Shown one piece after another: positions 1 to 49,649 of a stretch of DNA of 64,000 nt. The DNA comes from an uncultured virus (IMG/VR IMGVR_UViG_3300037993_000804) (taxonomy: Duplodnaviria; Heunggongvirae; Uroviricota; Caudoviricetes), in the IMG/VR virus record IMGVR_UViG_3300037993_000804; one strand, 5' to 3'. The notes under the pieces are model-generated. The model had not been told where the DNA came from and made no database searches. It saw only the letters and a list, made by a program, of their open reading frames with translations. Each line of letters opens with the position of its first letter. Position 1 is the stretch's first letter. Position numbers and translations under genes: made by a program.

Positions 1-94
1 AAGGAGCAATTACCCCTCCCGCTGAATATCGAGGGGGACATTACCAAGAATGGCAAAACACTAGTGGAAATATTTGATGAGGAGGCAAAACATC

Positions 95-1602: not shown

Positions 1603-2197
1603 AAGATTTTGGGACAAAGTGAAGGTGGACCTCTCATCACCTCTTGTCAGGGATGAACATTGTTGGATCTGGATAGCCGCTCACTTGGTCCAGGGCTACG
1701 GGCAATTCTCAGTGGGTAGTCGGAAAGATAACTCCCGTAAAATGGTCCGTGCACATCGTTTCGCATATAAAGCTATGATTGGACCCATACCTGATGGCCT
1801 GCAACTTGACCATCTTTGCAGGAATAGGGCGTGTGTTAATCCAAGTCACTTGGAACCGGTCACCGGAATTGAAAATACCAGACGAGGTTTAACGGGTATA
1901 GTTACGGCGCTCAGGGAAAGGGCGAAGACTCATTGTCCGAAAGGGCATCCCTATGATGAAACAAACACCGGTTATACGTCTAATGGTTGGCGGTACTGCA
2001 GGACATGTGCCCGAGAGAGAGAGAGAAGAAAGGCGGAGTTGTTACCAAGAAAACCTAATCCCAATAGTATTAAGACCCATTGTCCCAGAGGTCATGCGTA
2101 TGATAACCAGAATACCTATGTTAAACCGGATGGGAGAAGAGTATGTAGAACTTGCCATAATCTCCTCAGAAGATTGAAACGGAGGGTAAATAAATGA
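1532..2197 (+). CDS. HNH homing endonuclease with two C-terminal KTHCPxGH Zn-binding repeats
   Basis: CWIW...GYG...AHR...LDHLCRNRACVNPSHLEPVT..EN; lower GC than flanks; overlaps the JAB 3' end. Confidence 0.9.
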   Translation: MTTNQPTLPLGGVVFSVGDTRLPKRFWDKVKVDLSSPLVRDEHCWIWIAAHLVQGYGQFSVGSRKDNSRKMVRAHRFAYKAMIGPIPDGLQLDHLCRNRACVNPSHLEPVTGIENTRRGLTGIVTALRERAKTHCPKGHPYDETNTGYTSNGWRYCRTCARERERRKAELLPRKPNPNSIKTHCPRGHAYDNQNTYVKPDGRRVCRTCHNLLRRLKRRVNK

Positions 2198-5640: not shown

Positions 5641-6564
5641 ATGGAAATCAAGACAGCGGGAAAATTAGGCTATTGCACCGGCGTAGCCCAGGCCATCAAG
5701 CAGGCGACGGCCTTCGGCAAGCGGGTGGGGAGTAACAGCATTGAACCCACGAAAGCGTACTCTCTGGGTGCGCTCGCCCACAACGAGGATGTGGTGAAGA
5801 TTCTCCAAGAAAGCAATGTGGAAATCACCTGGTCTTCGGAGTTAAAAGGCGGGGAGAACATTATCATCCCGGCCCATGGCGCCGGCCCCAAGACGTATTC
5901 ACGACTCGACCAACTGAAGTGTCGGGTCGAAGATTGTACCTGTCAATACGTCAGGAAATCACAGATTCTGGTTAGTGAACTGTCCATGAAGGGCTATGAC
6001 ATCGTGATTTTCGGGGACCCCCAGCACCAGGAAGTCATCGGTCTCACCGACTGGGGCGAACCGCACATTAAATTCGTCGGCGGGGAGAAAGACCTCTTCA
6101 CCGAACAGCAGGGCAAGAAATCCCTGGGACTCAAACGGGAGGTGGTTGTCGTGAGCCAGACGACCCGAGATCCGGAGCGGTACGCCGAGTTTATCACCAT
6201 GCTCATGCATAACGTGGGTAATGACTACAAGGAGCTCCGGATCAACAATACCATTTGTCCCATCGTGGCCGAGCGCATCCAGCTCACCAAGAACCTCGCC
6301 GGGACGGTGGACCTGATGATCGTCGTCGGGTCGAAGAAATCGGCCAATACCATGAATCTGGTAGAGGCGAGCAGCACGGTCAGGCGCCCGTGGTCGCCGG
6401 TACTGGTGGCCAACGAAAAAGATGTCGTGTCGCTATCCCTGTTGACAGAGTGGATCAAGCATAACCCGTTTCGGGAGATCGGGGTAACTGCCGGCACCAG
6501 TACGCCCATCGAGGTTGTCGACGGCGTAATCGCAATACTCGGGAGGGCGACTAATGAACGTTGA
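5641..6564 (+). CDS. ispH: 4-hydroxy-3-methylbut-2-enyl diphosphate reductase
   Basis: GYCTGV, LAHN, IPAHG, DCTC, SQTT, NTIC, VVGSKKSANT, GVTAGTSTP; three Fe-S cysteines present. Confidence 0.95.
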   Translation: MEIKTAGKLGYCTGVAQAIKQATAFGKRVGSNSIEPTKAYSLGALAHNEDVVKILQESNVEITWSSELKGGENIIIPAHGAGPKTYSRLDQLKCRVEDCTCQYVRKSQILVSELSMKGYDIVIFGDPQHQEVIGLTDWGEPHIKFVGGEKDLFTEQQGKKSLGLKREVVVVSQTTRDPERYAEFITMLMHNVGNDYKELRINNTICPIVAERIQLTKNLAGTVDLMIVVGSKKSANTMNLVEASSTVRRPWSPVLVANEKDVVSLSLLTEWIKHNPFREIGVTAGTSTPIEVVDGVIAILGRATNER

Positions 6565-12765: not shown

Positions 12766-12886
12766 ACTTTCGATGCGGGTGGCGGTGATGGTGATGGTGA
12801 TGGATCGGGGTCGAGGGAACAATCCGAAATCTCAGGGTTGTCACCGTCGCCTTCCGATGGTCATGCCGGTGTTCTTCTTCCGCCAT
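12764..12886 (-). CDS. 40-aa His-rich peptide (not in ORF track)
   Basis: GGAGG RBS; MAEEEHRHDHRKATVTTLRFRIVPSTPIHHHHHHRHPHRK; ends at the terminator. Confidence 0.65.
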   Translation of the reverse strand: MAEEEHRHDHRKATVTTLRFRIVPSTPIHHHHHHRHPHRK

Positions 12887-12897
12887 GTGACCTCCCT

Positions 12898-13203
12898 TTA
12901 CTGGATGGTGAATTGCAGTGTGGTAACCGTAACAGGGATAGTGAACGCTTCAACTTCCGGACCCGAGTCCGATCCCTGTTCAGTCGCGGTACCGGCGAAA
13001 TTCGAATCTCCGGTATAGTTACCGACCGGTAGCGGGCTGGGCGTGGGCGCTGAAGACGAGTAGTTACCGTTCGAATCGGTAACAGCCGTCAGCTGCGGGC
13101 CGGCTGAACCGTCCGGATTGGTTACCTGGGTGACTACTGTTACCCCGACAACCGGATTTCCCGACACCTTTTCTGTTACAGTCCCCTGTGCTAGGAATTG
13201 CAT
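12898..13203 (-). CDS. Small Ig-like beta-sandwich protein
   Basis: GTVTEKVSGNPVVGVTV...TDSNGNYS...GNY pattern. Confidence 0.65.
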   Translation of the reverse strand: MQFLAQGTVTEKVSGNPVVGVTVVTQVTNPDGSAGPQLTAVTDSNGNYSSSAPTPSPLPVGNYTGDSNFAGTATEQGSDSGPEVEAFTIPVTVTTLQFTIQ

Positions 13204-13316
13204 CTTGGTTCCCCCCTTTTTATATTAGCCGTTTAAGGCTTCGGCTTTATCCTAAATGATTTGGCGGTGTTAGTCAAGCACTTTTCATGTGGAATGGTTT
13301 CCATACCACCCAATAT

Positions 13317-13406
13317 CGGTTCACCCCCACATACATGGGGAATACGCACGGGTACGCTTCCCGGTCATGGTTGATCTCGGTTCACCCCCACATACATGGG
13401 GAATAC
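13317..13406 (-). CRISPR. Cas-less type I-E-like mini-array (2 identical 29-nt repeats, one 32-nt spacer)
   Basis: Repeats at 13317-13345 and 13378-13406 read GTATTCCCCATGTATGTGGGGGTGAACCG on the - strand. Confidence 0.9.
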
Positions 13407-13472
13407 GACGTTGAGAACATAAGCGTACGATTCTACCGGCCACCAGCTTTTCCATAATACCGCCTCCGTACT

Positions 13473-13937
13473 TTATTCTCCGAAATGTTCACCCACGTCA
13501 ATCAGGTCCAGTACACTGATTGTACCATTATCCGCGATGTCTTCGGGGATCCAACCCGGGGTGCCGGTTTCGCCGACAGCCTGGGCGACGAGAATCAGAT
13601 CCAGCACATTCACCGGCGCGAAGTCCTGGGCGACATCGCCCTCCTGGTAAACGTTTATGGACAGGGCTTTCGTGGCCGTCTGGGGCGTAGGCTCGGCATC
13701 CGTAACGGTCACCGTGAAGTCATACACGCCGGGCGAGCCGGTGGGCGTGCCCGTGATCGTGCCCTGGGTGTTCAGCGTTAAGCCCGGCGGCAATTCCGAG
13801 TAAGTCGTCGGGATGACGGCCGTGGTCGTCGTGGTAGAACTGGTCGCTGCCGCGTTCTTCTCTTTCCGGGGCGGCCCGCAGGCCAGCACCGACAGGAGCA
13901 TGGCGATCAGCATTACGAACAGCAATATTCGCTTCAT
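13473..13937 (-). CDS. Lipoprotein with putative Ig (He_PIG-like) and dockerin-like domains
   Basis: Lipobox VLAC; LPPGLTLN..GTITGTPT; two GD..VNVLDL / DIADNGTISVLDL repeats. Confidence 0.8.
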   Translation of the reverse strand: MKRILLFVMLIAMLLSVLACGPPRKEKNAAATSSTTTTTAVIPTTYSELPPGLTLNTQGTITGTPTGSPGVYDFTVTVTDAEPTPQTATKALSINVYQEGDVAQDFAPVNVLDLILVAQAVGETGTPGWIPEDIADNGTISVLDLIDVGEHFGE

Positions 13938-13952
13938 CGATGCCCTCCCGCG

Positions 13953-14561
13953 TCAGGTTGCGCCGAAGTTCTGGCCGATCAAAATCAGGTCCAGCACGGT
14001 GATGACGCCCGCTTTCAGGAAATCTTCGGGGATCCAACCGGGTGTGCCGGTCTGGCCGAAGAAGCCGGCGCAGATGACCATATCAGCGGCGTTGACCGTA
14101 CCGTCCAAGTTTAAGTCCCAGACTGAGGCAACCTCCGCTTGGTTTATAGTTGGAGATGATAAAGGGACGGCCACCCCGGCAGGTGTCCCCACGATTGCAT
14201 TACTGATGGTGAATGCTGAGGTTGTTCCTGCGGTAAGCGCCGTGCAGGTGATGACGGCCAGTGATCCGGGAGCGGTGACACTTTCGCCCGCGCCCTCCAT
14301 GGCATCGGCCACGTTGACCAGCGTACCGTTCGTATTGTTGATCGTGCCCGGCATGAAATAGGTATTGGGGTCCGTCGCCTTGAAGATCGTGCCCTCGGCA
14401 ACGCTATTCACCTGGACGGCGGCCGGGTTCCATCCGAGGTTGAACTGGGCGCCGGCGATGGAAACTCCCGTACCCGGCGTAATGGCGACGGTGACCGTGA
14501 ACTGTTGCCCCGCGGTGACTACCGGGGCGGATGGGGTGACTGTCATGACTGTTTCGCTCAT
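13953..14561 (-). CDS. Cohesin-like plus dockerin-like protein
   Basis: GQQFTVTV..IAGAQFNLGWNP...V.SVAEG (cohesin); WDLNLDGTVNAADM (dockerin); ATG 14561 after GGAGG. Confidence 0.8.
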   Translation of the reverse strand: MSETVMTVTPSAPVVTAGQQFTVTVAITPGTGVSIAGAQFNLGWNPAAVQVNSVAEGTIFKATDPNTYFMPGTINNTNGTLVNVADAMEGAGESVTAPGSLAVITCTALTAGTTSAFTISNAIVGTPAGVAVPLSSPTINQAEVASVWDLNLDGTVNAADMVICAGFFGQTGTPGWIPEDFLKAGVITVLDLILIGQNFGAT

Positions 14562-14646
14562 TGTCTTTACCTCCCTTATACTCCCTATTATTATAACCGA
14601 CATGAGAACAAACCATACGAGCACGCCACAAATGGCGAGAAGGACT

Positions 14647-15042
14647 TTATGTTGTGACACTTGGCACCTCCGTAATCGGGTGTTTTATACGCGGGGAAAA
14701 TATGAACGGACTTTCCGCGATCTTGAGAAAACCCTGCTGCATGAAGAAAGATAGCTGTGTCCGGTTTTTGGCATCGCAATAGTCCATGATGTGCACGACA
14801 TGATTCTTGGCGGTTTGCAGACTACAACCGCATTCATTTGCGATTACCCGGTTGGTGGCCCCTCGGAGCAGCAGGTCCAAGATTTGCATTTCCCGCTTGG
14901 TGAGTACAACGACCCAGCCTTCGGTCTGAATGCCGTCGGGCGTCCATTTCCCGTATTTAGCCTTCTTCACCGGCGCCACCTCCGCAGTAACCTTTTCCAC
15001 CGCTGGCAGCGCAAAAATCCGCGGACACGGCGGCGGTTCCAT
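14647..15042 (-). CDS. LuxR-type HTH transcription regulator
   Basis: LTKREMQILDLLLRGATNRVIANECGCSLQTAKNHVVHI; start uncertain. Confidence 0.85.
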   Translation of the reverse strand: MEPPPCPRIFALPAVEKVTAEVAPVKKAKYGKWTPDGIQTEGWVVVLTKREMQILDLLLRGATNRVIANECGCSLQTAKNHVVHIMDYCDAKNRTQLSFFMQQGFLKIAESPFIFSPRIKHPITEVPSVTT

Positions 15043-15161
15043 TTATCCCAACCCGGCGAAGAGTAGAAATGATCCACGGATGCTCCAAAAACAAAGAGAA
15101 CCGGCGACGAAACCGGTCCTCTTTGTGCAAGCGTAATGTGTGACAGACAGCCCCCAGGCTG

Positions 15162-15392
15162 TTATTCAGCCATTTTGGCTGACCAGTTGCGAGCCCACTT
15201 GTTCGCATCTGGCGCATGGTAATTGGCAGCCTGGACACCCGATTGATAGTTGGCAGTTCTCGTGGGGCCGAACCCGGCGCCCTGATAACCTGCAACCATC
15301 CGGCCTTTCGCAGCGTTATAGCTGGCGGCCATCTGGGTGGCCTTTCTGGCCAACTTTGCTTGACCCTTCGCAGCAGCATCAGCAATCGCCAT
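15162..15392 (-). CDS. Small basic Ala-rich protein (possible nucleoprotein)
   Basis: 76 aa, GAGG RBS, Ala/Lys/Arg rich and helical. Confidence 0.6.
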   Translation of the reverse strand: MAIADAAAKGQAKLARKATQMAASYNAAKGRMVAGYQGAGFGPTRTANYQSGVQAANYHAPDANKWARNWSAKMAE

Positions 15393-15508
15393 AATAAGCC
15401 TCCTCTCAAGATTTGGGTACTGTCTTCAGCATAGATCATGTTCTTTTACCTGTAAAGCCGCCAGGCGCGTCTACGGGGTGGGTGGGGGGACTTGACACCG
15501 CCGGAAAA

Positions 15509-15775
15509 CTATGCTTCAGGCTTAACCTCCCCTCTTTCATGACCGAAAGAGCGCATATACTTCTCGCAATCCCGGAGGTACTGCGGGAGAAACTTGTTCG
15601 AGGCGGCCGTGAGATTTTCCTGGTCGCCGGCATAACGGGCCATACCTTCCGCGCAACCGACCGCCCAGTCCATGGCCAGGTCGATGATCCCGGGTTTATA
15701 TCCCAGTGCGTTGAGCTCTTTCTTGCGCCGGGCGATGAGACTGTTTCTAACCTTCTGCGGGTCCTGGGTTGCCAT
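15509..15775 (-). CDS. Hypothetical helical protein, paralogous to the C-terminus of 48411-49067
   Basis: GY....D.A..W......GMA shared pattern. Confidence 0.65.
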   Translation of the reverse strand: MATQDPQKVRNSLIARRKKELNALGYKPGIIDLAMDWAVGCAEGMARYAGDQENLTAASNKFLPQYLRDCEKYMRSFGHERGEVKPEA

Positions 15776-16631
15776 TCATCTCCTTGACCATGCGGGCCTC
15801 CGCGCGGGCAAACACGTCATCCAGCGTTTCCCGACTCGGGGCCACGTGGGTTGTCAGCCGGGTAATCCATTGCTGCTCGGAAATTTTACCGTTTCCGTAA
15901 TCCGTCGCCCATTGCTGCACCTTGGGATCGCCGATTTCTGCGGCCACGGCGTTGGCAAATGCTACCTCGGCGGGCTGGGGCTTCGCTTTCGGGGTGGTGT
16001 CTCGTTTCGCCCTTTTGGCCGGAACGGGCTTCTCTGGCCGTTCTGGGCCTTCTGCCGAGCCGTTAGCGGCCGGCGGCAGTTGCTTCGGCTGACTGGCTGC
16101 CCGTCTGCGGCCCGCGGCCGGTGATTTCGGCGCAGTCGCTTCCTGCACGGTCTTGATGCGGTTCTCCAGATCTCCCGCCCACTTGCCGAGCTGCTCGAGG
16201 TCTTCCACCTGTCCGCCGCCCTGCGCCAGCCGGATCAGGGAATTGGATCCCCGCAAATCCCGCAGCGCCATACGGAAAACATCGGAGACGTTCGCCATGG
16301 AGCTCGGTCCGGAGCGCCAGGCCGGCTCGGCGGCGTTGACCTTGGCCAGTATCTCGCGGCTCTTCTGCACCACGGACGGGGCCGCGGCCGACTTCTTTTC
16401 CCGGGCGTCTTCCAGCGTCGCGGTCAGCATATTGTAGACGGCCTCGAAGGTTTCCGTGGGGGTCTCGCCGAATTTGGGACGGCCGCCCACCAGGGCGTCG
16501 TTCATCTCGCCCAGCATCTGGTCGCCGCTCCGGATCGTGGTCGAGACGGTCGAAACTCCACTCTTGAAAACCTCGAGGGCGCGCTGGGTCACTTCCATAA
16601 ATACTTCATCGGGTCTGCGATCGAATACCAT
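15747..16631 (-). CDS. Hypothetical protein
   Basis: 294-aa ORF with GGAGG RBS, in operon. Confidence 0.7.
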   Translation of the reverse strand: MVFDRRPDEVFMEVTQRALEVFKSGVSTVSTTIRSGDQMLGEMNDALVGGRPKFGETPTETFEAVYNMLTATLEDAREKKSAAAPSVVQKSREILAKVNAAEPAWRSGPSSMANVSDVFRMALRDLRGSNSLIRLAQGGGQVEDLEQLGKWAGDLENRIKTVQEATAPKSPAAGRRRAASQPKQLPPAANGSAEGPERPEKPVPAKRAKRDTTPKAKPQPAEVAFANAVAAEIGDPKVQQWATDYGNGKISEQQWITRLTTHVAPSRETLDDVFARAEARMVKEMNGNPGPAEG

Positions 16632-16642
16632 AACCTACCCTC

Positions 16643-17968
16643 CTATACGCCGAAAGCTTTCTTGCGGATGTCGGCCGAACGGTCCTTGTTGGTGGCCTGC
16701 TGCAGCAGGGTGCCGGCACGGTTTTCCCGGTCCTGGGGCGTACTTTTATTCTCCGGCTGGAAAGAGTCACCGCGGAGGGCGGTGCGCTCGAAAATTCCCA
16801 CCATGCGGTCGACGGTCTTATCCAGGCGGCCGGTCGAGTCTTTGATCAGCTGGACCACGGGGCTGTTATCCGTAACGGCGGTATTGGTGACTCCCAGCGC
16901 CTGGCGCAGACGGGCGATTTCGTTGGGGTCGCCCAGCGGATCACGGGCCGCGATGGCGGCCATATTCGCTTCCATCCGGTCGCGCCACTCCTGTTCCCTG
17001 TCTGCCTGTAACTGCTGGATCTGCGCTGCGAGTTGCTGGTTGCTCTGGAGCAGGGCCTGATAAGCGGGATTACCGTTCAGGTCGTCGTCATGGCTCTTGT
17101 CGAACATCTTGTCGATCAGCTTCTCCATGAGTTTCTCCTGGAAGTTCATCGCCGGTTTCGCCGCCCTGCCGGGCGTTTTGGGTTCACCGCCGGTCTCGCT
17201 TTCTTCTTCCGTTTCGGCCTTCTGGCCGCGTTCCACGGCCTTGATGTAATTGGCTCTTTGCGCCGCTTCCAGGGCATCAGCATAAGTCATCGGACCGCCG
17301 GCAACGGGCACCCAGTCGCCATCCCGGTCTTTGCCGATCCTGTATCCCACGCCGGTCGCATCATCCAGTTTCTGTCCGATAGATTTCCCGTCGGTTTGTC
17401 CCGGCTTCTTGGCGCCCTTGCCGGCGCCGAGGTCTTCATCGTCTAACTCGAACTCCCCGGCCGGCAGGTTATGACTCTTGGCATAAGCGGCCATGACCAG
17501 ACGGAGCTCTTTGGCGGCGATGAATCCCGACGCGTGCCGGGTGAGCACCTCTTTCAGCCACGCCAGGCTGTCGGTATCGCCATCGAAAAAGAGTTTGCTG
17601 ATGGTTGGTACGACGTTCTTGTCCACGCCCACGCTCTTGAGCAGACTTTCGAAGTCGGCCTTGGCGGTGGCCTTCAGGTCGGACGATTTCCCGCCTTTGT
17701 CTTTGATGGCCTCATCGCCCTCCGGGGCGTCCGGTTCGATTACGTCCTGTATGCCCAGGGCCACCTTCAACTGGTCTTCGGTCACCCCGTCAATGAGCTT
17801 GAAACGGCCATCTTCCAGTTTCTCGGCCACGCCTTTCTTGACGAGTTCGAGACAAGAGTTGTGGATGCTTTTCTTGGTGGCATTGATCTTGGGCTTGAAG
17901 TCATTCGGCAGCATCGGTGTATTCTGGTTGGCCTTGAGCATGTCTACCACGGTCATTGCGATGGTCAT
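16643..17968 (-). CDS. Hypothetical protein with wHTH-like N-terminus and coiled coil
   Basis: ATG 17968 overlaps the upstream TGA; IHNSCLELVKKGVAEK..GRFKL. Confidence 0.7.
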   Translation of the reverse strand: MTIAMTVVDMLKANQNTPMLPNDFKPKINATKKSIHNSCLELVKKGVAEKLEDGRFKLIDGVTEDQLKVALGIQDVIEPDAPEGDEAIKDKGGKSSDLKATAKADFESLLKSVGVDKNVVPTISKLFFDGDTDSLAWLKEVLTRHASGFIAAKELRLVMAAYAKSHNLPAGEFELDDEDLGAGKGAKKPGQTDGKSIGQKLDDATGVGYRIGKDRDGDWVPVAGGPMTYADALEAAQRANYIKAVERGQKAETEEESETGGEPKTPGRAAKPAMNFQEKLMEKLIDKMFDKSHDDDLNGNPAYQALLQSNQQLAAQIQQLQADREQEWRDRMEANMAAIAARDPLGDPNEIARLRQALGVTNTAVTDNSPVVQLIKDSTGRLDKTVDRMVGIFERTALRGDSFQPENKSTPQDRENRAGTLLQQATNKDRSADIRKKAFGV

Positions 17969-18261
17969 GATGGTTTCACCTCCCGTTTGGATTCTTCGAC
18001 GGCTAACTGCTGATGCTGGGTATAGGCCAGGTTGAAACAATAGATGAAGAGCGCGGTGAAGGTGTTTTCCTTAATATAGCCGCGGTCATAAAGATAGTCC
18101 TGGAACGCCTTCAGCCGTTCGACTTCATTATCCGAGATCTTCAAGGCCCGGATGTTATTGACGTCTTTCCGTTCGACCTTGAGCGGGAGAATCACCTCAT
18201 CGTCGTTCAGCGCCAATACCTGCGCTAGTAAATTGGGGTCGATTTGCTGTGCTTCTGCCAT
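17965..18261 (-). CDS. Small hypothetical protein (possible RHH fold)
   Basis: ORF coupled to dxs and to the downstream gene. Confidence 0.6.
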   Translation of the reverse strand: MAEAQQIDPNLLAQVLALNDDEVILPLKVERKDVNNIRALKISDNEVERLKAFQDYLYDRGYIKENTFTALFIYCFNLAYTQHQQLAVEESKREVKPS

Positions 18262-20169
18262 TTAGCTACCCTCCGTTAATCGTTTAATCCGGTCGATGAT
18301 ATCTTCCGGGTCAAGACCGTACTGTTTTCTGAGCTCGGAAATTTCCGCATGGTCCGGGAAACAATCGCCCACGTTGATGCGGTACACATCCGGGCCGACG
18401 CCGGAATAGTCCGACATGGCCTCCATCAGCGCCGATGCCGCGCCGCCCTGCGCGGTGCCTTCTTCGACGACGAACACCGAGCCCGCCTGCTTACAAAGCG
18501 CGGCCACCAGGTCGGGGTCAACCGGCTTTACAAACCGCATGTCCACGACTTCCCAATTCAGACTCGGCAGCCTGGGGTCGCAGATGGCATGGGCCAACCG
18601 GTCGCCGATTTCACCCACGGTCACCACGTAAATCCCGCCGCCCTGTTTGAGCATATCCGACTTGGGAATGTCGATTATCCGCAGGTCATGGTCGATATCC
18701 ACGCCCAGTGACTCGCCGCGGGGAAAACGCAGGCAAAACGGATGATCTTGCTTGAGTCCGGTATAGAGCAGCCGGCACATTTGGTTCTCGTCGCGGGGTA
18801 CGCTCACAATCATGTTGGGCGCCAGGCGCATGAACGCCAGGTCCAGCAGTCCGTGATGGGTGGCGCCATCCTGGCCGACAAACCCGGCCCGGTCCATGGC
18901 GAAGACCACCGGCAGGTCATTGAGGCAAACGTCGTGCACGATCTGGTCGAAGCATCGCTGCATGAACGTCGAGTAAATGCAGACTACCGGCCGCATCCCG
19001 CAGCGGGCCATGCCGGCAGCCAGCGAAACGGCGTGTTCTTCCGCGATCCCCACGTCCAGCACACGTCCGGGAAATCTCTCTTTGAGTGAGGTCAGACCGG
19101 TCCCCTCGAGCATCGCGGCGCTGATCGCCACGATCCGGTCGTCGGCCGCCATCAGGTCGCCAAGGCACTGGGAGAAGATGGCCGAATAGGTGGGCCGGGG
19201 CTCGCTAACCTGGCAGGTGAGGTCGAGGGCATATTTTTTACCGGGCTGGTGATAGGCCACGGGGTCTTCTTTCGAGGGGGCATAACCGCTGCCCTTGTCG
19301 GTCAGTACGTGGACAAAAGGCACGCGATCGCTCTTTTCTTTCGCCCGGGTAAACATTTCGATGAGGTCTCCAATGTTATGGCCGTCCACCGGGCCGAAAT
19401 AATTGAAACCCATTTCATCCCAGACCCGGCCGATGCCCGGCACCGTGCCGCGCTGAATTGTCGACTTCACGCCCTTGCCCAGCGACAGGAAGAAATCGCC
19501 CATCGGGACTTTACCGGCGAGCCGGGTCGTAACTTCCTGGAACGTCTGGAAGTCTTTGTCCAGTTCCAGATTATCCCGCAGGTGGGCCAGCCAGCGGGTC
19601 CGCCAGTCGGCGATCCAGCCGACATTGGGCGAAATGGCCATGCCGTTATCGTTGAGCACGATCATCAGGTTGCGGGGGTTCATGGCCACGATATTGGAGA
19701 GCCCTTCGTAGGCCAGGCCGGTGGTCAGGCTGCCGTCGCCGACCACGCTGACAAAATACCCTTCGTACCCCTGTAACGTGGCGGCCGCCGCCAGTCCCAG
19801 GGCCATCGAGGGCGTACAGCCGGCGTGTCCCATCGTAAAGAGGTCATGCTGAGACTCCCGGCGGTCAAAATAACCGGAGTAGCCGCCGGTAGTACGGATG
19901 CCGGAGAAATTGGCCGCCCGGCCGGTGAGCATCTTGTGGGTGTAGCTCTGGTGCGAGACATCAAACAGAATCCCGTCGCGGGGAGAATCGAAGACATAAT
20001 GCAGGGCGATGGTCAGTTCGACCACCCCCAGGTTAGAGGCCATATGGCCGCCGTTACAGCCCACGGTCGCAATGATCCGGGCGCGGATTTCTTCGGCCAG
20101 CGCCGGCAGGTCTTTGACCGGCAGCGCCTTCAGGTCGTCGGGAGATTCGATCTTCTCAATCAGGGTCAT
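18262..20169 (-). CDS. dxs: 1-deoxy-D-xylulose-5-phosphate synthase
   Basis: GGHMASNLGVVELTIALH, DVSHQSYTHK, GDGSLTTG..YE...NDN (ThDP motif), DVGIAEEHAV, IYSTFMQR, DRAG.VG.DGATHHG. Confidence 0.97.
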   Translation of the reverse strand: MTLIEKIESPDDLKALPVKDLPALAEEIRARIIATVGCNGGHMASNLGVVELTIALHYVFDSPRDGILFDVSHQSYTHKMLTGRAANFSGIRTTGGYSGYFDRRESQHDLFTMGHAGCTPSMALGLAAAATLQGYEGYFVSVVGDGSLTTGLAYEGLSNIVAMNPRNLMIVLNDNGMAISPNVGWIADWRTRWLAHLRDNLELDKDFQTFQEVTTRLAGKVPMGDFFLSLGKGVKSTIQRGTVPGIGRVWDEMGFNYFGPVDGHNIGDLIEMFTRAKEKSDRVPFVHVLTDKGSGYAPSKEDPVAYHQPGKKYALDLTCQVSEPRPTYSAIFSQCLGDLMAADDRIVAISAAMLEGTGLTSLKERFPGRVLDVGIAEEHAVSLAAGMARCGMRPVVCIYSTFMQRCFDQIVHDVCLNDLPVVFAMDRAGFVGQDGATHHGLLDLAFMRLAPNMIVSVPRDENQMCRLLYTGLKQDHPFCLRFPRGESLGVDIDHDLRIIDIPKSDMLKQGGGIYVVTVGEIGDRLAHAICDPRLPSLNWEVVDMRFVKPVDPDLVAALCKQAGSVFVVEEGTAQGGAASALMEAMSDYSGVGPDVYRINVGDCFPDHAEISELRKQYGLDPEDIIDRIKRLTEGS

Positions 20170-20567
20170 ATCAGTTTCCTCACCTGCTCGGAACCGATGC
20201 GCCGCAGCACTTTACGGAAACGCTCCGAATCGACAACCCACTGGCTGCCGGTGTAGCGGATCGCCCGCTTGGCGTATTTCTGAGCGAAGGTATCTTCACC
20301 GTGGCCGCTGAGCGCCCCTTCCACCAGGTCGAGAAAGGTATCTTCGGACATTTCCACTTCGCCGGTGTACTCGGCGTGCTCTGCGGTCGGATTAAACTTG
20401 CCGTTCTTGATCTCGTAAATCAGGGTCGTATCATGCTCGCCGATGATGGTCCATTTTCCCACCCAGCCATCGGACTCTTTCCAGTCTTCTTCGTCGGCCA
20501 CCTCCGCAATCTTGCCCATGAGGTAAGTGACCAGGCGTTTTACGTTAGAATTTTGCTGATCAGCCAT
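20166..20567 (-). CDS. SCP2 (sterol carrier)-like lipid-binding protein
   Basis: LIYEIKNGK...EVEMSEDTFLDLVEG...AIRYTG resembles the SCP2 pattern. Confidence 0.55.
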   Translation of the reverse strand: MADQQNSNVKRLVTYLMGKIAEVADEEDWKESDGWVGKWTIIGEHDTTLIYEIKNGKFNPTAEHAEYTGEVEMSEDTFLDLVEGALSGHGEDTFAQKYAKRAIRYTGSQWVVDSERFRKVLRRIGSEQVRKLI

Positions 20568-21322
20568 CGTTTCACGCCTCCCTTGTGTTTCTTGAGCAGT
20601 ATCGGCTTGTTATACAGGAGAGCGCCGACAATCTCCGCGACCGTCTTGCGGCGTATCTCTTCGGCAGCAAAGGGGATCGCCCCCAGAAAACGGACTCCCA
20701 TTTCGGCCGCCAGCTGATACACGTCTTCCGCCTCGCGGTCGAAGGGGTTCGACAGACAGCCGCAGTTCGGGCAGATGTAGCCGGCCATGTTGGCGACGAC
20801 TCCCGCCACCGGCGTTTCGGTTTCCCGCAGAACGTCCAGGGTCTTGGCCAGGGCCAGTACCGCCAGGTCATTGGGCTGGCAGACGACGACGGCGCCGTAG
20901 ATGTTGGGTAAGTTCAGCAGCAGGGATTGAATCTCATCCCCGGAGGTGGGCGGCGTGTCCACCACGATCCAGTCGAGGTCCGGCGCCCAGGCGATAGAGC
21001 TGGTGGCGATTTGCTTGACGGCTTCGGCCTTCTGCTGTCCGTCCCACATGTTGGCTTCCGTGTCTTTGAAGAGCAGCCCGACGGAGAAGATCTGAAAACC
21101 TTCCCACTCGATGGGCCGCAGCTTGCCGCCGAGAATCGGGTCATAACCGGGGTCGGTGGCCATGTGGAGCGCCCGGGGCAGGGCGGAAGCGTGGATATCG
21201 ACATCGAGCAGGCCGACTTTGAACGATCTTTCTTGCAGGGCTTTGGCGATGGAAATGCAGGTGGTAGTTTTACCCGTCCCACCCTTAAGGCTGCAAACGA
21301 CGAGCTGGTTGGGATTTTTCAT
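20540..21322 (-). CDS. mrp: Mrp/NBP35 family P-loop NTPase (Fe-S cluster carrier)
   Basis: KGGTGKTT, VGLLDVDI, LDWIVVDTPP, VVANMAGYICPNCG, FLGAIP. Confidence 0.88.
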   Translation of the reverse strand: MKNPNQLVVCSLKGGTGKTTTCISIAKALQERSFKVGLLDVDIHASALPRALHMATDPGYDPILGGKLRPIEWEGFQIFSVGLLFKDTEANMWDGQQKAEAVKQIATSSIAWAPDLDWIVVDTPPTSGDEIQSLLLNLPNIYGAVVVCQPNDLAVLALAKTLDVLRETETPVAGVVANMAGYICPNCGCLSNPFDREAEDVYQLAAEMGVRFLGAIPFAAEEIRRKTVAEIVGALLYNKPILLKKHKGGVKRWLISKILT

Positions 21323-21339
21323 TGAGCCTCCTGTCTTTG

Positions 21340-21529
21340 GAAAAACGGAGAGGCGGCCGTTCCAAAATTGCCCCATCCCCTATAGGCAATTAAAGAATCA
21401 GCCGCCTCTTCGTCAAGCCAGCGGTCGGGAGGGAAACCTCAAGGTAGTCTGGACCGGATTTTGACCCGGCCGCTCCATCAGTCCCCCTAACCCGACTTAC
21501 ACCTTACCACACCGGGTAAAACTTGTCAA
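21340..21529 (-). promoter_or_regulatory. Sigma70-type promoter with ~170-nt structured leader ending in a terminator-like stem
   Basis: TTGACA(21529-21524)-N17-TAAGGT; GAAGAGGCGGC...GCCGCCTCTCC-GTTTTT before the mrp RBS. Confidence 0.65.
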
Positions 21530-21534
21530 GAGGG

Positions 21535-22686
21535 TCAAGTTTTATCCTTGGGCGGATTCAGATAATAGAATCTTCCCTGCCGGCCCGCTACTTTGGAGTA
21601 GATGTTCAGGGTATCGGCCACGGCCTTGCCGATCTTGCATTTGGAGGGCGTCGGCTGCGGGTACGGCGGCTGCGGCGGGATTACGCCGTCCGGAACCATG
21701 TGCTGCATTTGCGCGTCCAGTTCGCTGAAAACTATCCAGAAATAACCGGGCGTATTCTTGCCGTTGACCATGCAGCCTTTAGCCCAACCGGTACCCCAGG
21801 AATTGCGGCAGAGGTAAGCGCCGAGCGATGCGCTGTAACCGACCACGCCGATATCATGCTCGCCGACGACCGGGTCGCTGTCGCCCAGATGAATGTAAAC
21901 CCCGCCGTCATAATTATAGAAAGACTGATGGACCACGAACGACGCGTTGAGCGGCGTGGTATCCAGCATGACTTGAATGTCCGTCGGGTCGGTGAGGGTG
22001 TCCCAGCTGGCCAGCTTTTTGCCGCCGGTCCACCAGTTGGCGCAAATCCCGGCGCCGCAAGCCTGATCCACGTCCCGGTAGGGCAGGCAGGCTTCGGTAC
22101 AAACGCCGTTGAGCAGAAAAGCCAGCGTATTGGGAATGGTATTGCCGTCCGTGCAATTACCGCCGCTGCAGATGAAGACGTGAGCCTCGGACAGCTTGAT
22201 CGGATCGGTGGGTAGATTTTCCGCGATGCGGATGCAGGCTTCCATAATACCGATATTGCCGAAAGCCGTGCAGGAGCCGCAGTTACCTTGATCCTGAATC
22301 GGGCTCATCCACTGGAGCAGAACGCTCGACCCCGAGGGCGTTCCCTTCAATTTCCGGCCCGGCGCCGGCACTTTTGGGTTTTCTTCCCGCTTCAGACCGA
22401 ACCGGCGGCGCTGCAGCGCGGGGTGGAGCTCGCTAACGGAGGTCAGGGCGGCGGTCCAGGTGGTCGGATTGACCTCGACCACATCCACCGGAATGCCCTC
22501 GATCTCTTTCGGGAGAATAGAATTCGGTTCCATCAGAGATTCCGGCAATTTCTTTCTGACCTGGACGGTAATCGCCGGTACCTTGGTGTCTACACCCTTT
22601 GTAAATTTGGTTCCCAGGCCGACGTTGAGAACATAAGCGTACTTTTTCAGTTCTTCCCAATGGCGGTCTAACACTTGTTCACTCAT
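21535..22686 (-). CDS. Papain-family (C1A) cysteine peptidase with N-terminal extension
   Basis: QDQGNCGSCTAF, LSEAH, EHDIGVVGY, RNSWG. Confidence 0.93.
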   Translation of the reverse strand: MSEQVLDRHWEELKKYAYVLNVGLGTKFTKGVDTKVPAITVQVRKKLPESLMEPNSILPKEIEGIPVDVVEVNPTTWTAALTSVSELHPALQRRRFGLKREENPKVPAPGRKLKGTPSGSSVLLQWMSPIQDQGNCGSCTAFGNIGIMEACIRIAENLPTDPIKLSEAHVFICSGGNCTDGNTIPNTLAFLLNGVCTEACLPYRDVDQACGAGICANWWTGGKKLASWDTLTDPTDIQVMLDTTPLNASFVVHQSFYNYDGGVYIHLGDSDPVVGEHDIGVVGYSASLGAYLCRNSWGTGWAKGCMVNGKNTPGYFWIVFSELDAQMQHMVPDGVIPPQPPYPQPTPSKCKIGKAVADTLNIYSKVAGRQGRFYYLNPPKDKT

Positions 22687-23043
22687 AAAATCTCCTTAAC
22701 CATACCAGACTGAGGGGAATTTCACCTGCCGGCAGAACCACTCGAAGTCGGTGTTCTTACCGCATTTGGGACAGATGCAAAGCGGATTCGGCGGATATTT
22801 GGGCCGCCCCTCGACGGTCAATTTGAACTTTTTCTTGCACTCCCGGCAAACCATGATGTAGGTTGTTTGAGTCGACATCAGTAACCCCTCGTTTGCCAGC
22901 ATGAAATCAGTTCCTGAACAACGTCGTCGTAGGTCCGTTTTCCGGTTTTGAGAGTCTTCAATCTCGATTTTGTTAGTTCGGAAACAGGAACGCGGACCCA
23001 TTTCCGGGTGTTGTCGGGCTTATTCATGGGCCCTCATTAACTC

Positions 23044-24590: not shown

Positions 24591-25769
24591 ATGTTGAATC
24601 CATTTCTGCAAAAGACCCTCTACTCTCAACCCGTCCAGCCGGTCATGGTTGAAATCGATCCCGCCAAATTCTCCCAAACCCTGAGTCAAATCCAGGGATT
24701 ATTCGGCGCCAGCGGTCTTTTCGGGGCCAAGCCGCCCATGTTGCTGGCGATTCCTTTCTTCAGCTTTGCCGGTCTAACCCAGGTCACCCCGGAAACCATT
24801 CTGGCGATCAATAACCTGCCCGGCGTCCGCGCCGTCCACGCGGATGTAGTCAATAATATCCTGATGGCGCCGACCGACTCGACAACCTGGTGGCCCACGT
24901 CCCAGAGCCGCTTGATGTTAGGCGCCGATGTGGCCAACAAGGCGGGTTACACCGGAGAATCGGTTACCGTCGGGATCTGCGACACCGGCGTAGATGCCCT
25001 TCATCCGCAGCTGCGGGGCACCGAATTCTATACGACCATGATCGACAAAGAGATCATCGACGAAGTCGGCCACGGTTCTCACGTCGCTTCGACGATTGGG
25101 GGAAAGACCCTGAATTCCATCGGCGGCATCCCGGTCCAGGGCGTTTCGCAGGCCCGGATGATCTGCGTGAAATGCATGGGACGCGGTGTCGGTACCGGTT
25201 TCAACTCGGAAATCGCTAACGCCATGGCCCTCTGCGCCCAGAAGGGCGCCCAGGTAATCTCGATGAGTCTCGGCTCGGATTCGCCCCAGGGCGGCATCGC
25301 CAACGATCCGCTCTGCCGGATGGTCAGCGCACTCACGCAACAGGGAATTATCGTTGTCATCGCGGCCGGCAACTCTGGTCCGGACCCGAACACCATCGAT
25401 TCGCCCGGATGCAGCCCCGATGCCCTCACGGTGGCGGCCGTCAATCCCGACGGCTCCGTGGCGTCGTTCTCCAGCCGCGGCGGTTCAACTTATCCCGGTA
25501 AACCGGATTGCGCCGGTCCGGGCGTGCTGATCTACTCGGGCACCAGCGAACTATCGCCCATGTCGGTGGAGCAGCCGAAGGCGGGCTATGGCTACGTCGC
25601 AATTTCCGGCACCTCGATGGCGACCCCGCATGTGGCCGGCCTGGTGGCCCTGCTCAAGCAAAGAACACCCACCCTGACCACGCCTCAAGTCAAATCGGTA
25701 CTGGCGTCCCAGGGCAATTCCTGGAACCCGGACACCGGTTTCGGCGTTCCCAACTGGAATATGTTCTAA
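24591..25769 (+). CDS. Subtilisin-family (S8) serine protease, no signal peptide
   Basis: ICDTGVD, GHGSHVAS, AAGNSG, SGTSMATPHVAG. Confidence 0.95.
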   Translation: MLNPFLQKTLYSQPVQPVMVEIDPAKFSQTLSQIQGLFGASGLFGAKPPMLLAIPFFSFAGLTQVTPETILAINNLPGVRAVHADVVNNILMAPTDSTTWWPTSQSRLMLGADVANKAGYTGESVTVGICDTGVDALHPQLRGTEFYTTMIDKEIIDEVGHGSHVASTIGGKTLNSIGGIPVQGVSQARMICVKCMGRGVGTGFNSEIANAMALCAQKGAQVISMSLGSDSPQGGIANDPLCRMVSALTQQGIIVVIAAGNSGPDPNTIDSPGCSPDALTVAAVNPDGSVASFSSRGGSTYPGKPDCAGPGVLIYSGTSELSPMSVEQPKAGYGYVAISGTSMATPHVAGLVALLKQRTPTLTTPQVKSVLASQGNSWNPDTGFGVPNWNMF

Positions 25770-49067: not shown

Positions 49068-49214
49068 AATGAAGACAACACTAACCCCGGAAGAAAACCG
49101 CATCAAGCGACAATGGGCCAAAAAAGGTGTGGAGATCGAATTCTCCGATAAGCCTTTTGTCCCTAACATGAAGTACCACGATTATTTAGTAAGTAAGCGG
49201 TGAGGAGGTGGACA

Positions 49215-49649
49215 ATGGCACAATTTACCGCCCCGTTCCTGGGAATGGTTCCGGAACGGAAGATGACCAACAATGAGCTGATTCGCGCGATCCGCCAGAA
49301 TATCGCCGAAGAGCACGGCGCGACTTTCCTGTATAACGCGATTGCCGACGCGACCGACAACGAGGCTGCGAAAGCCGTGCTGAATGACGTGGCCAATGAT
49401 GAACGTGTCCATGCCGCGCAATTCGGGCGTTTGCTTCAAATGTTTACCGGCGACGAGGGCGAGTTCATCCTGAAGGGCAACAATGAAACCGACCGGTTGA
49501 CGGCCGGCGTCCGCAATTCGTTCAATACTTCACCGAAATTTAACCCGCTCGATCCCCTGGGATTGCTCGAACCTGCCCGGCGGGATATCGAACGGCTGCT
49601 GGCGCCGGTCCAGCGCATGATGATCGGCAGCAACGCGGGAGGCAAATAA
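49215..49649 (+). CDS. Ferritin-like/rubrerythrin-family protein with C-terminal FNPLDPLG tail
   Basis: ELIRAIRQNIAEEHGA..LY...NDVANDERVH. Confidence 0.85.
   Translation: MAQFTAPFLGMVPERKMTNNELIRAIRQNIAEEHGATFLYNAIADATDNEAAKAVLNDVANDERVHAAQFGRLLQMFTGDEGEFILKGNNETDRLTAGVRNSFNTSPKFNPLDPLGLLEPARRDIERLLAPVQRMMIGSNAGGK

What the first reader, a model, noticed from the sequence alone, without database searches (positions are those of the whole stretch)
13317..13440. Type I-E mini-array whose spacer and flank both partly match the element's own protease genes
Seen: spacer 13346-13377 shares CCGGTCATGGTTGA (14 nt) with 24639-24652 in the subtilisin 5' end. In frame it reads PVMVD versus PVMVE in the gene. 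The flank 13407-13428 (GACGTTGAGAACATAAGCGTAC) is identical over 22 nt to 22621-22642 in the C1A peptidase 5' end. In crRNA polarity both have mismatches at the 5' seed side. Inference: these are spacers taken from homologous genes of competing relatives, using host Cascade while avoiding self-targeting, or partial-match guides that regulate the proteases.
Basis: partly seen in the sequence, partly recalled or inferred. Interest (0 to 1): 0.85.

Follow-up and report, generated by a model that had tools for sequence, protein, structure and literature searches.

The report
Mobile-element CRISPR mini-array, disarmed self-spacer
A tiny CRISPR array carried by a peat-soil mobile element looks like a weapon aimed at sister strains, and its odd 22-base match to the element's own protease gene is most likely the harmless stump of a spacer that once matched that gene in full.

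Summary
The sequence facts are real. Two identical 29-nt repeats lie at 13317-13345 and 13378-13406, with one 32-nt spacer between them. The family is type I-E and the crRNA strand is minus.

The 14-nt subtilisin match is at chance level: 47 of 2819 unrelated spacers match the window as well.

The 22-nt (23 with the last repeat base) identity to the C1 peptidase gene is far beyond chance. It is not an assembly artefact, because k=31 contigs of three runs carry it. It is the PAM-distal two thirds of a protospacer with a canonical AAG PAM. The seed-side 10 nt and an upstream repeat are missing, so I read it as a disarmed spacer stump, not a guide.

A sister strain (L113) is 100% identical in its flanks and carries a 7-repeat array at window 49068-49202. 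Two of its spacers match the window's array-free allele fully, each with an AAG PAM. L113 itself keeps only their PAM-distal 22-23 nt.

The window's own locus is also polymorphic. In runs X12 and X8, repeat 1 is replaced by 281 nt that run straight into spacer 1.

Best reading: leaderless, cas-less mini-arrays used in strain-against-strain conflict, with self-immunity by loss of PAM and seed. This is a new variant of a known kind. Protease regulation is not supported.

The parts
13317..13345 (-). CRISPR repeat 1 (29 nt). It is the trailer-side repeat in crRNA sense.
   Evidence: In runs X12 and X8 this repeat plus the 4 nt before it (13313-13345) is replaced by 281 other letters.
13346..13377 (-). 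Spacer 1 (32 nt), the only unit with a repeat on both sides, so the only complete crRNA.
   Evidence: Its best match elsewhere in the window is 14 nt, which is chance level. In the X12/X8 allele it runs straight into 281 nt of other DNA.
13378..13406 (-). CRISPR repeat 2 (29 nt, identical to repeat 1).
   Evidence: Contigs of X1, X8 and X19 start in it and run on into the flank.
13407..13428 (-). 22-nt stump: the PAM-distal part of a spacer against the C1 peptidase gene, identical to 22621-22642.
   Evidence: It is hypervariable between strains: X12 shows 4 substitutions and 2 one-base deletions here, against about 0.8% divergence around it. The two versions are still alike, 16 of 22, P about 1.5e-4 to 2e-3.
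13429..13472 (-). DNA between the stop of gene 13473-13937 and the stump. It is not a repeat and not a host-type leader.
   Evidence: No repeat-like alignment (p 0.19). No likeness to 96 host leader flanks (p 0.91). No differences are listed for it in strain X12.
22621..22655 (-). Intact protospacer (22652 down to 22621) with AAG PAM (22655 down to 22653), inside codons 11-22 of the C1 peptidase gene.
   Evidence: Protein variant P0175 has E11A, which must change the first PAM base.
21535..22686 (-). C1 (papain-family) peptidase gene.
   Evidence: Pfam PF00112, 1.2e-25. The N-terminus HWEELKK is shared with homologues, so the gene is the native copy.
24639..24652 (+). 14-nt chance match to spacer 1 in the subtilisin (S8) gene 24591-25769.
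49105..49139 (+). Protospacer 49108-49139 with AAG PAM 49105-49107. It is matched 32 of 32 by a spacer of sister strain L113.
49191..49224 (+). Protospacer 49194-49224 with AAG PAM 49191-49193. It is matched 31 of 31 by a spacer of L113. It covers the ribosome-binding site and start codon of gene 49215-49649.
49068..49202 (+). Array-free ('empty') allele of the intergenic region that holds a 7-repeat array in L113.

Best explanation
The locus is a leaderless, cas-less type I-E mini-array carried by a mobile element of at least 84 kb. The element is phage- or plasmid-like and found in peat and wetland metagenomes. The array lies inside a minus-strand gene string.

Shown:
- The repeat family belongs to type I-E systems and the crRNA strand is minus.
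- Only spacer 1 has repeats on both sides.
- The 22-nt flank equals the PAM-distal part of an AAG-flanked protospacer in the element's own C1 peptidase gene. The flank lacks the 10 seed-side bases and an upstream repeat.
- A sister strain carries a larger array at another locus. Two of its spacers span the borders of their own insertion and match the array-free allele (this window) in full with AAG PAMs. The carrier keeps only the PAM-distal 22-23 nt of each.
- The window's own array locus has a second allele in which repeat 1 is replaced by 281 nt that continue spacer 1.

Inferred:
- The arrays are read by the host's Cas6e, Cascade and Cas3, and hit co-infecting sister strains that carry the other allele. 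This is superinfection exclusion, and possibly conversion of the other allele.
- The carrier is immune because its own copy of each target has lost PAM and seed.
- The flank at 13407-13428 is what remains of a spacer that matched the C1 gene of this lineage in full. It was disarmed by loss of its seed side and of the repeat before it. It is therefore a scar, not a guide.
- The common break point, 9-10 nt from the PAM in three cases, suggests that Cas3 nicking of the displaced strand set the deletion ends.
For: **Type I-E membership and polarity.** In 3 of 3 examined loci where arrays of this repeat family (CGGTTCACCCC-N9-GGGGAATAC) lie beside cas genes (L151, L126, L008), the neighbours are type I-E proteins above NCBIfam cut-offs. 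L151 has Cse1, Cse2, Cas7e, Cas5e, Cas6e and Cas1e; L126 has the last four; L008 has Cas6e and Cas1e. In all three the repeat reads GTATTCCCC...GAACCG in the direction of the cas genes.

**PAMs.** All three protospacers have AAG.

**Sister strain L113.**
- L113 nt 1-103 and 638-863 are 100% identical to window 49305-49203 and 49067-48842. Between them lie 7 copies of the same repeat, none of which is in the window at that place.
- Spacer matches are 31/31 and 32/32. L113's own copies stop after 22 and 23 nt.
- A second contig shows the same L113-type junction. Protein P0188 reads from the repeat through L113's trailer into gene 49215.

**The window's own locus.**
- An X12 contig joins 13312 to 13346 through 281 other letters, and X8 has loose ends at the same two places.
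- The break is exactly at the repeat-spacer border.

**The C1 site.**
- The identity starts flush at the repeat and AAG sits at the right distance.
- One of three variable residues in the C1 protein cluster (E11A) falls on the PAM.

**Specificity.** Among 238 fetched loci plus the window, repeat-flush self matches of 22 nt occur only in the window and in L113.

**No leader, no cas genes.**
- 68 of 96 host arrays end their leader side in AGN. The window and L113 do not, and resemble no host leader.
- No cas gene was found among 78 ORFs with Pfam or 62 ORFs with PHROGs.

**Literature.**
- Virus-borne mini-arrays target related viruses, often close to the array, with deletions or point changes in the carrier. 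The cause of the proximity is called unclear. Phage mini-arrays lack leaders (PMC6858448, passages; PMC11656645, passages).
- Cas3 nicks the non-target strand about 11-15 nt downstream of the PAM and moves 3'-5' (PMC5965380, passages).
Against: - No allele with spacer 1's sequence next to a PAM was seen. In the one alternative allele seen, that sequence follows repeat 2, so targeting by spacer 1 is not shown.
- No array with the full-length spacer against the C1 site was found.
- The flank lost the spacer's seed side, whereas in L113 the target lost it. One mechanism does not obviously explain both, so the 22-nt length of the flank could be coincidence.
- The X12 version of the stump differs at 6 of 22 places, which a dead scar does not predict.
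- The break at 9-10 nt lies just outside the 11-15 nt quoted in the review.
- For L113's 49194-49224 target, the break also coincides with the start of the ribosome-binding site, so selection could have set it.
- Expression and processing of the array are untested. No promoter was found upstream on the minus strand within 12800-14100.
- The host is not identified, and whether the element is a virus is open: there are no structural-protein hits in this window.
- Only 863 nt of L113's 26,766-nt contig could be read.
Confidence: 0.55

Rival explanations
1. The repeats act as RNA anti-CRISPRs (Racr-type decoys). Repeat transcripts bind Cas6e and Cas7e and tie up the host's type I-E machinery. The spacer and flank content would then be incidental.
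For: - Solitary repeat units on phages inhibit type I-F, I-E, I-C and V-A systems (PMC10651486, passages; PMC11656645).
- The X12/X8 allele appears to keep only one repeat, i.e. a solitary repeat unit.
- There is no leader and there are no cas genes.
- The repeat is identical to one found in an array in the same kind of habitat (L080).
Against: - It does not explain why L113's spacers match the sister allele in full with AAG PAMs, nor the repeat-flush 22-nt identity with an AAG-flanked site.
- The window has a complete repeat-spacer-repeat unit, which in the Racr study made a functional crRNA when a repeat and a spacer were added.
- No promoter lies directly upstream and no acr neighbour was recognised.
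Confidence: 0.12
2. The array pieces are passive scars. Fragments of host (or other) arrays were captured by the element during CRISPR attack, by recombination between a spacer and its protospacer or by end joining. They have no present function.
For: - The arrays sit at, or replace, the very sequences their spacers match.
- They lack leaders.
- L113's insert begins with a spacer-length (33-nt) piece that has no repeat before it, as does the window's flank.
- The authors of PMC6858448 suggest that leaderless phage mini-arrays may gain spacers by recombination with host arrays.
Against: - The element with the array is seen in 24 runs of 24 studies, and the repeats are perfect copies. Decaying junk would not be expected to stay so clean, although the time scale may be short.
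- Scar origin and present use are not exclusive: this rival differs from the best explanation only in denying function.
Confidence: 0.2
3. One reading: partial-match guides that steer Cascade to the element's own protease genes and regulate them without cleavage.
For: Both partial matches fall in the 5' parts of protease genes. The C1 site has an AAG PAM.
Against: - The known crRNA-like regulators use PAM-proximal (seed) pairing (recalled). Here the seed side is mismatched: 7 of 10 positions in the flank.
- The flank has no upstream repeat, so no 5' handle.
- The subtilisin match is at chance level and its site has TCG instead of a PAM.
Confidence: 0.03
4. The 22-23 nt identities are assembly chimeras joined at short shared words.
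For: The shared lengths (22, 23, 23) are close to the smallest word size of some metagenome assemblers (recalled). L113 was not checked against reads.
Against: - k=31 contigs of X1, X8 and X19 carry repeat 2, the 22-mer and the following DNA in one piece with 0 differences. A 22-nt overlap cannot join 31-mers.
- L113's junction is seen again in a second contig through P0188.
- L113's spacers are flanked by repeats on both sides, which chimerism through the native copy would not produce.
Confidence: 0.02

Closest known systems
Virus-borne mini-CRISPR arrays of Saccharolobus portogloboviruses SPV1 and SPV2 (Medvedeva et al. 2019, PMC6858448; passages read)
   Same: - One or two spacers, no cas genes, in intergenic DNA.
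- Repeats like those of cellular arrays.
- Closely related strains in one habitat carry spacers against each other.
- Targets lie close to the array.
- The carrier's own copy has deletions or point changes.
   Different: - Here the setting is bacterial type I-E, with 29-nt repeats and an AAG PAM, rather than archaeal type I-A/I-D-like.
- There is no leader, whereas SPV arrays have host-like leaders.
- The spacers span the borders of the array's own insertion.
- The carrier keeps a fixed PAM-distal 22-23 nt.
- One unit (the finding's flank) is a truncated spacer against a gene that is intact in the same genome.
Leaderless mini-arrays and solitary repeat units of phages and prophages (survey cited in PMC6858448 and PMC11656645; the survey itself was not read, only its description)
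   Same: The arrays are leaderless. The repeats are identical to host repeats. The spacers target adjacent genes of closely related viruses but not the carrier.
   Different: I could not check whether junction-spanning spacers or fixed-length stumps were reported there. Here three alleles of one locus are seen in the same habitat.
RNA anti-CRISPRs (Racr), including RacrIE1/2 (Camara-Wilpert et al. 2023, PMC10651486; passages read)
   Same: A host-like repeat sits on a mobile element without cas genes. The X12/X8 allele seems to have a single repeat.
   Different: The window has a full repeat-spacer-repeat unit. There is no promoter directly upstream and no acr neighbour. The spacer content is clearly non-random in L113.
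Spacer-protospacer recombination between phages and CRISPR loci in staphylococci, and engineered CRISPR homing gene drives (both recalled; no paper was read)
   Same: Arrays end up at the site of their own target. A guide that cuts only the allele lacking the cassette is the logic of a homing drive.
   Different: No recombination or conversion event was observed here, only its possible products. The system would be type I (Cas3), not Cas9.

Membership tests
Type I-E CRISPR array | Repeat of the family that accompanies type I-E cas genes, in the same polarity | tested here: met
   Arrays with CGGTTCACCCC-N9-GGGGAATAC lie next to type I-E cas genes in L151, L126 and L008 (L151: Cse1, Cse2, Cas7e, Cas5e, Cas6e, Cas1e; L126: the last four; L008: Cas6e, Cas1e), all above curated cut-offs. 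The repeat reads GTATTCCCC...GAACCG in the direction of the cas genes in 3 of 3. The window's repeat differs only in the 9-nt loop.
Type I-E CRISPR array | Regular repeat-spacer spacing (29-nt repeat, 32-33-nt spacer) with at least two repeats | tested here: met
   Spacing is 61 nt, with two identical repeats.
Type I-E CRISPR array | AAG-type PAM 5' of protospacers on the crRNA-sense strand | tested here: met
   AAG is found at 49191-49193, at 49105-49107, and at the reverse complement of 22653-22655. No PAM could be read for spacer 1.
Type I-E CRISPR array | Adjacent cas operon | tested here: not met
   No Cas family was found among 78 ORFs (Pfam) or 62 ORFs (PHROGs) of the 64-kb window. It is an orphan array.
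Type I-E CRISPR array | Leader next to the first repeat | tested here: not met
   68 of 96 host leader-side flanks end in AGN; the window ends in GTC. The best alignment to any host leader is no better than for shuffles (p 0.91).
Virus/MGE-borne mini-CRISPR array for inter-element conflict | 1-2 spacers, no cas genes, carried by a mobile element | tested here: met
   There is one spacer. The window encodes an integrase, a DnaC-like loader, helicases and an MCM-like ATPase. The same DNA is present in 24 runs. Virus or plasmid is not settled.
Virus/MGE-borne mini-CRISPR array for inter-element conflict | Repeat identical to that of a host array | tested here: inconclusive
   The exact repeat occurs in 3 of 238 fetched loci: L069, L080 and L113. 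L080 looks like the end of a longer array, but its owner is unknown. Many repeat-bearing contigs map to the repeats in the same runs.
Virus/MGE-borne mini-CRISPR array for inter-element conflict | Spacer matches a close relative in full, with a PAM, and not the carrier | tested here: inconclusive
   This is met for L113's two spacers against the window. For the window's spacer 1, the matching DNA of the X12/X8 allele follows repeat 2, not a PAM. No allele with a PAM was seen.
RNA anti-CRISPR (Racr) / solitary repeat unit | Single repeat just downstream of a promoter, often beside acr genes, that inhibits the cognate system | not testable with these tools
   Neither a promoter-like site upstream on the minus strand nor an acr-like neighbour was found. 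Inhibition needs an assay.
crRNA-like regulatory RNAs with partial targets (CreA-type; features recalled) | PAM-proximal (seed) complementarity to a promoter or gene, flanked by a repeat-like 5' handle | tested here: not met
   The complementarity is PAM-distal (22 nt) and the seed side matches at 3 of 10 positions. There is no repeat upstream.

The most novel reading that the evidence does not exclude
The arrays behave as natural CRISPR-guided homing cassettes. Each cassette sits at the Cas3 nick site of its own target, 9-10 nt from the PAM. It carries the spacer that cuts only the allele lacking the cassette. In a co-infected type I-E host it would therefore either destroy sister genomes or be copied into them by repair from the 100%-identical flanks. 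This would explain why mini-array targets lie next to the arrays, a point the SPV1/SPV2 paper left open. It would also explain the alleles seen at 13.3 kb and a third one inferred there: a killer allele with repeat-spacer-repeat (the window), a resistant recombinant with one repeat abutting the target (X12/X8), and a presumed sensitive allele that was not observed.
Probability: 0.15. Interest if true: 0.85.

Novelty: new variant of a known kind. Interest (0 to 1): 0.6.

Why it matters
Mini-arrays on viruses are known, but how they arise and why their targets lie beside them is unsettled. This case offers strain-resolved snapshots from one habitat:

- an array allele and an array-free allele with identical flanks;
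- spacers that span the array's own borders;
- a constant PAM-distal stump of 22-23 nt;
- a PAM-changing protein variant at a targeted site.

Together they make testable the idea that type I interference itself creates and spreads these cassettes. They also show how a mobile element can carry a spacer against its own kind without killing itself.

Tried and rejected
**Searches that returned nothing**
- No whole genome is held for the window, and L113's record is not held. The rest of that 26.8-kb contig and the 281-nt allele could therefore not be read.
- Viral contigs gave 0 exact hits for the repeat, the 22-mer and 28 nt of spacer 1.
- Viral contigs holds no relatives of the He_PIG protein or the C1 peptidase.
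- The phage collection has no match to 13200-13480.
- Rfam and tRNA scans of the window found nothing.
- Earlier scan notes hold nothing.

- None of 50 C1 homologues reads the flank's frame (VESYAYVLNV).
- None of the 120 listed subtilisin homologues has PVMVD or FPVMV. Only 120 of 3275 hits were listed, so this is weak.

**Other negative results**
- A degenerate third repeat upstream of the flank is not supported (p 0.19).
- The RNA fold of the minus strand 13480-13200 is no better than shuffles (z = -0.33).
- The only promoter-like site lies downstream of the array, and there is no terminator-like site.
- No contig in the four laid runs joins 13428 to 22643, so no deletion between the two 23-nt copies was seen. 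Contigs show presence, not absence.
- Host spacers against the window: apart from L113, the best were 23 of 33, 24 of 32 and 22 of 33 without an AAG PAM. I treat these as chance.
- L113's other spacers (S1, S2, S6, the 33-nt piece) match the window by at most 12 nt.

**Idea considered and dropped**
A 9.2-kb segment bounded by the two 23-nt direct copies as an integrated element. I dropped it because the C1 gene is continuous and native across its copy.

Full report

Yes. Two identical 29-nt repeats lie at 13317-13345 and 13378-13406, 61 nt apart. They are the only copies in the window at up to 3 mismatches.

The 14-mer shared by spacer 1 and the subtilisin gene (13361-13374 = 24639-24652) and the 22-mer shared by the right flank and the C1 peptidase gene (13407-13428 = 22621-22642) are both present, each exactly twice. 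Pfam confirms the two genes as Peptidase_S8 (24591-25769) and Peptidase_C1 (21535-22686, minus strand).

The two matches do not weigh the same.

- I took 2819 unrelated spacers from arrays of the same repeat family as a control. Of these, 47 have an exact match of 14 nt or more somewhere in this window, and none reaches 18 nt.
- Over its whole length spacer 1 agrees with the subtilisin site at only 18 of 32 positions (by eye). The site has TCG where a PAM would be. The 14-mer is therefore at chance level.
- The 22-mer is not. With the last repeat base it is 23 nt, and it starts flush at the repeat border.
- It is not an assembly artefact. Contigs built from 31-mers in runs X1, X8 and X19 run from repeat 2 through the 22-mer into the following DNA without a difference. 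X1 may be the source sample; X8 and X19 are other studies.

**2. What kind of array is it?**

A scan for the repeat with its 9-nt loop left open returned more than 117 metagenome stretches and more than 122 genome stretches. Many hits are long arrays in Chloroflexota, Planctomycetota, Armatimonadota and Cloacimonadota genomes.

In the three loci I examined where cas genes lie beside such arrays (L151, L126, L008), the neighbours are type I-E proteins above curated cut-offs. L151 has Cse1, Cse2, Cas7e, Cas5e, Cas6e and Cas1e; L126 has the last four; L008 has Cas6e and Cas1e. In all three the repeat reads GTATTCCCC...GAACCG in the direction of the cas operon.

The window itself has no cas gene among 78 ORFs (Pfam) or 62 ORFs (PHROGs).

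There is no leader. In 68 of 96 host arrays the leader side ends in AGN. The window's ends in GTC and resembles no host leader (p 0.91). There is also no third, decayed repeat upstream of the flank (p 0.19).

On the minus strand the order is:

- gene 13473-13937 (He_PIG domain, dockerin-like tail);
- 34 nt;
- the 32-nt flank;
- repeat 2, spacer 1, repeat 1;
- 113 nt;
- gene 12898-13203.

Only spacer 1 has a repeat on both sides, so only it can give a crRNA with both a 5' handle and a 3' hairpin. This last step follows from the known Cas6e processing of type I-E transcripts.

**3. The carrier**

The window encodes a tyrosine integrase, a DnaC-like loader, helicases and an MCM-like ATPase. It also encodes many proteins without family, and metabolic genes including DXS, IspH and a polyprenyl synthetase.

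Its proteins occur on contigs of up to 84,301 nt. The stretch 13000-22999 is held by 24 runs of 24 studies from peat and wetland, 22 of them with half of its words or more.

No phage structural protein was recognised in this window, so "mobile element, phage- or plasmid-like" is as far as I go.

**4. A sister strain shows what such arrays do**

The exact repeat, loop included, occurs in 3 of the 238 fetched loci: L069, L080 and L113.

L113 is the first 863 nt of a 26,766-nt contig. Its ends are 100% identical to the window (nt 1-103 = 49305-49203; nt 638-863 = 49067-48842). Between them it holds seven copies of the repeat where the window has a plain 135-nt intergenic region.

Two of its spacers are copies of that plain region:

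- One equals window 49194-49224 (31 of 31) and is preceded in the window by AAG.
- The other equals 49108-49139 (32 of 32) and is also preceded by AAG.

In L113 itself only the PAM-distal 22 and 23 nt of these two sequences remain, each at the border of an inserted block of repeats. PAM and the first 9 nt are gone.

The last repeat of one block is altered at its 3' end, as is usual for trailer repeats. The other block begins with a spacer-length piece (33 nt) that has no repeat before it.

The L113-type junction is seen again in another contig. Protein P0188 is an ORF call that starts inside the repeat, reads through L113's 73-nt trailer and runs into gene 49215.

So a strain with the array carries spacers that fit the strain without it, at the very place where the array sits. 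The carrier is spared because its own copies lack PAM and seed.

**5. The window's own locus is polymorphic too**

In run X12 (a strain about 0.8% diverged), one contig joins 13312 to 13346 through 281 other letters. Repeat 1 and the 4 nt before it are replaced, and the alignment resumes exactly at the first base of spacer 1. Run X8 has loose ends at the same two places.

In that allele spacer 1's sequence is therefore continuous with other DNA, and only repeat 2 seems to remain. No indel is listed inside 13378-13406. However, only 2 of the 17 gap letters and 4 of the 11 substitutions of that contig piece are itemised, so this is not certain.

This is the pattern expected if spacer 1 matches the alternative allele of its own locus, and if the X12/X8 form is a recombinant joined within the spacer. 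An allele with that sequence next to a PAM was not seen.

The same X12 contig differs from the window at 6 of the 22 positions of the flank's stump (4 substitutions, 2 one-base deletions), while no differences are listed in the 10 nt beyond it or further downstream. The two versions are still more alike than chance: 16 of 22, P about 1.5e-4 to 2e-3 against random 20-mers of the window. The stump is thus a hot spot, and the 10 seed-side nt behave as local DNA rather than as part of a spacer.

**6. The C1 peptidase site**

In crRNA sense the gene reads AAG, then 10 nt, then the 22 nt shared with the flank. It is a complete type I-E protospacer with a canonical PAM at the exact distance. The shared part is the end that abuts the next repeat in a real spacer.

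The gene is the native copy. Its N-terminus up to and across the site is shared with homologues, for example HWEELKK.

Among the four full-length variants of this protein only three residues vary. One of them, E11A in P0175, lies on the two codons that supply the PAM and must change its first base. This is suggestive of CRISPR pressure on the site: by my estimate about 1-2% by chance for the PAM codons.

I therefore read the flank as the remainder of a spacer that once matched this gene in full. It has lost its seed side and the repeat before it.

**7. Mechanism**

Shown:
- the family, the polarity and the PAMs;
- the full matches between strains;
- the stumps and the allele structure.

Inferred:
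- The arrays are transcribed with the surrounding minus-strand (window) or plus-strand (L113) genes.
- They are cut by the host's Cas6e and loaded into Cascade.
- Cascade then directs Cas3 to co-infecting sister genomes.

This is the interviral-conflict role proposed and tested for archaeal virus mini-arrays. Those authors also noted that targets lie close to the arrays, for reasons unknown, and that phage mini-arrays lack leaders and may arise by recombination with host arrays (PMC6858448, passages; PMC11656645, passages).

The three break points lie 9, 9 and 10 nt from the PAM. A review places the Cas3 nick on the displaced strand at about 11-15 nt from the PAM, with degradation proceeding 3'-5', that is towards and past the PAM (PMC5965380, passages).

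In L113 both stumps keep the PAM-distal part plus the downstream DNA and have lost the PAM side up to the array. That is the polarity expected of Cas3-made deletions. I propose this as the origin of the stumps in L113, with moderate confidence.

Two cautions apply. It does not directly explain the window's flank, where the spacer rather than the target is truncated. And for the 49194-49224 site the break also coincides with the start of the ribosome-binding site.

**8. Rivals**

- Racr-type decoy: possible, above all for the one-repeat allele, but it leaves the spacer content unexplained.
- Passive capture scars: this shares the origin story and differs only in denying present use.
- Regulation of the proteases by partial guides: disfavoured by the seed-side mismatches, the missing handle and the chance level of the subtilisin match.
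- Assembly chimerism: excluded for the window and unlikely for L113.

**9. Limits**

- The host is unknown.
- Expression is untested.
- Only 863 nt of L113's contig and no letters of the 281-nt allele could be read.
- The contig tables list only part of the differences.
- The survey of phage mini-arrays cited by the papers I read was not itself available to me. Junction-spanning spacers may already have been described there.

Noticed in passing
window 5641-6564, 18262-20169, 23458-24471, 41279-42019, 56967-57332: The element carries isoprenoid-pathway genes: IspH/LytB, DXP synthase, a polyprenyl synthetase, a weak UbiA-like hit, and a 121-aa piece matching only the C-terminal end of GcpE/IspG. 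This is an unusual set of metabolic genes for a mobile element.
   Followed up: no
window 74-3039: A Prok-E2, a JAB-like (below cut-off) and a ThiF/E1-like gene lie in a row, forming a ubiquitin-like conjugation module.
   Followed up: no
window 13473-14660: The two genes just upstream of the array on the minus strand have a He_PIG Ig domain and a cohesin domain. Both end in similar dockerin-like tails.
   Followed up: no
window 13313-13346 and 13374-13407: The duplicated unit is 34 nt, not 29. The 4 nt before each repeat (ATAT and ATCT) and the base after it (G) also agree. This may bear on how repeat 1 arose.
   Followed up: partly
window 13274-13312: The loose-end letters of runs X8 and X12, read by eye on the minus strand, continue as an open frame with a hydrophobic stretch into these bases and stop at 13274-13276. 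The window may therefore keep the 3' end of a small membrane-protein gene that the array allele has lost (my reading).
   Followed up: partly
L113 nt 442-534: The DNA before the altered repeat and the spacer after it overlap by 23 nt of the same native sequence (window 49117-49139). The repeat is thus flanked by a direct duplication.
   Followed up: partly
L126 2438-3610: In a Cloacimonadales genome the Cas5e protein beside an array of this repeat family is 390 aa long. It has a C-terminal part matching the HNH region of IscB (E 5e-6, below cut-off). This may be a Cas5-HNH variant of type I-E.
   Followed up: no
L063, L139, L219: The same repeat family also occurs in contigs labelled Methanomassiliicoccales (L139, L219). 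In L063 it lies next to SepRS and SepCysS genes, and the array is broken up by long inserts.
   Followed up: no
L069 nt 1468-1558: A second two-repeat mini-array with the exact repeat and a 33-nt spacer lies among small membrane-protein and pilin-like ORFs on an unrelated 2-kb contig.
   Followed up: partly
window 13141-13481 in runs X1, X12, X19: Summed contig depth over the repeats is 5-20 times that of the neighbouring bins. In X1, 56 of 70 laid contigs fit both repeats. Many other arrays with this or a very similar repeat are therefore present in the same samples.
   Followed up: no
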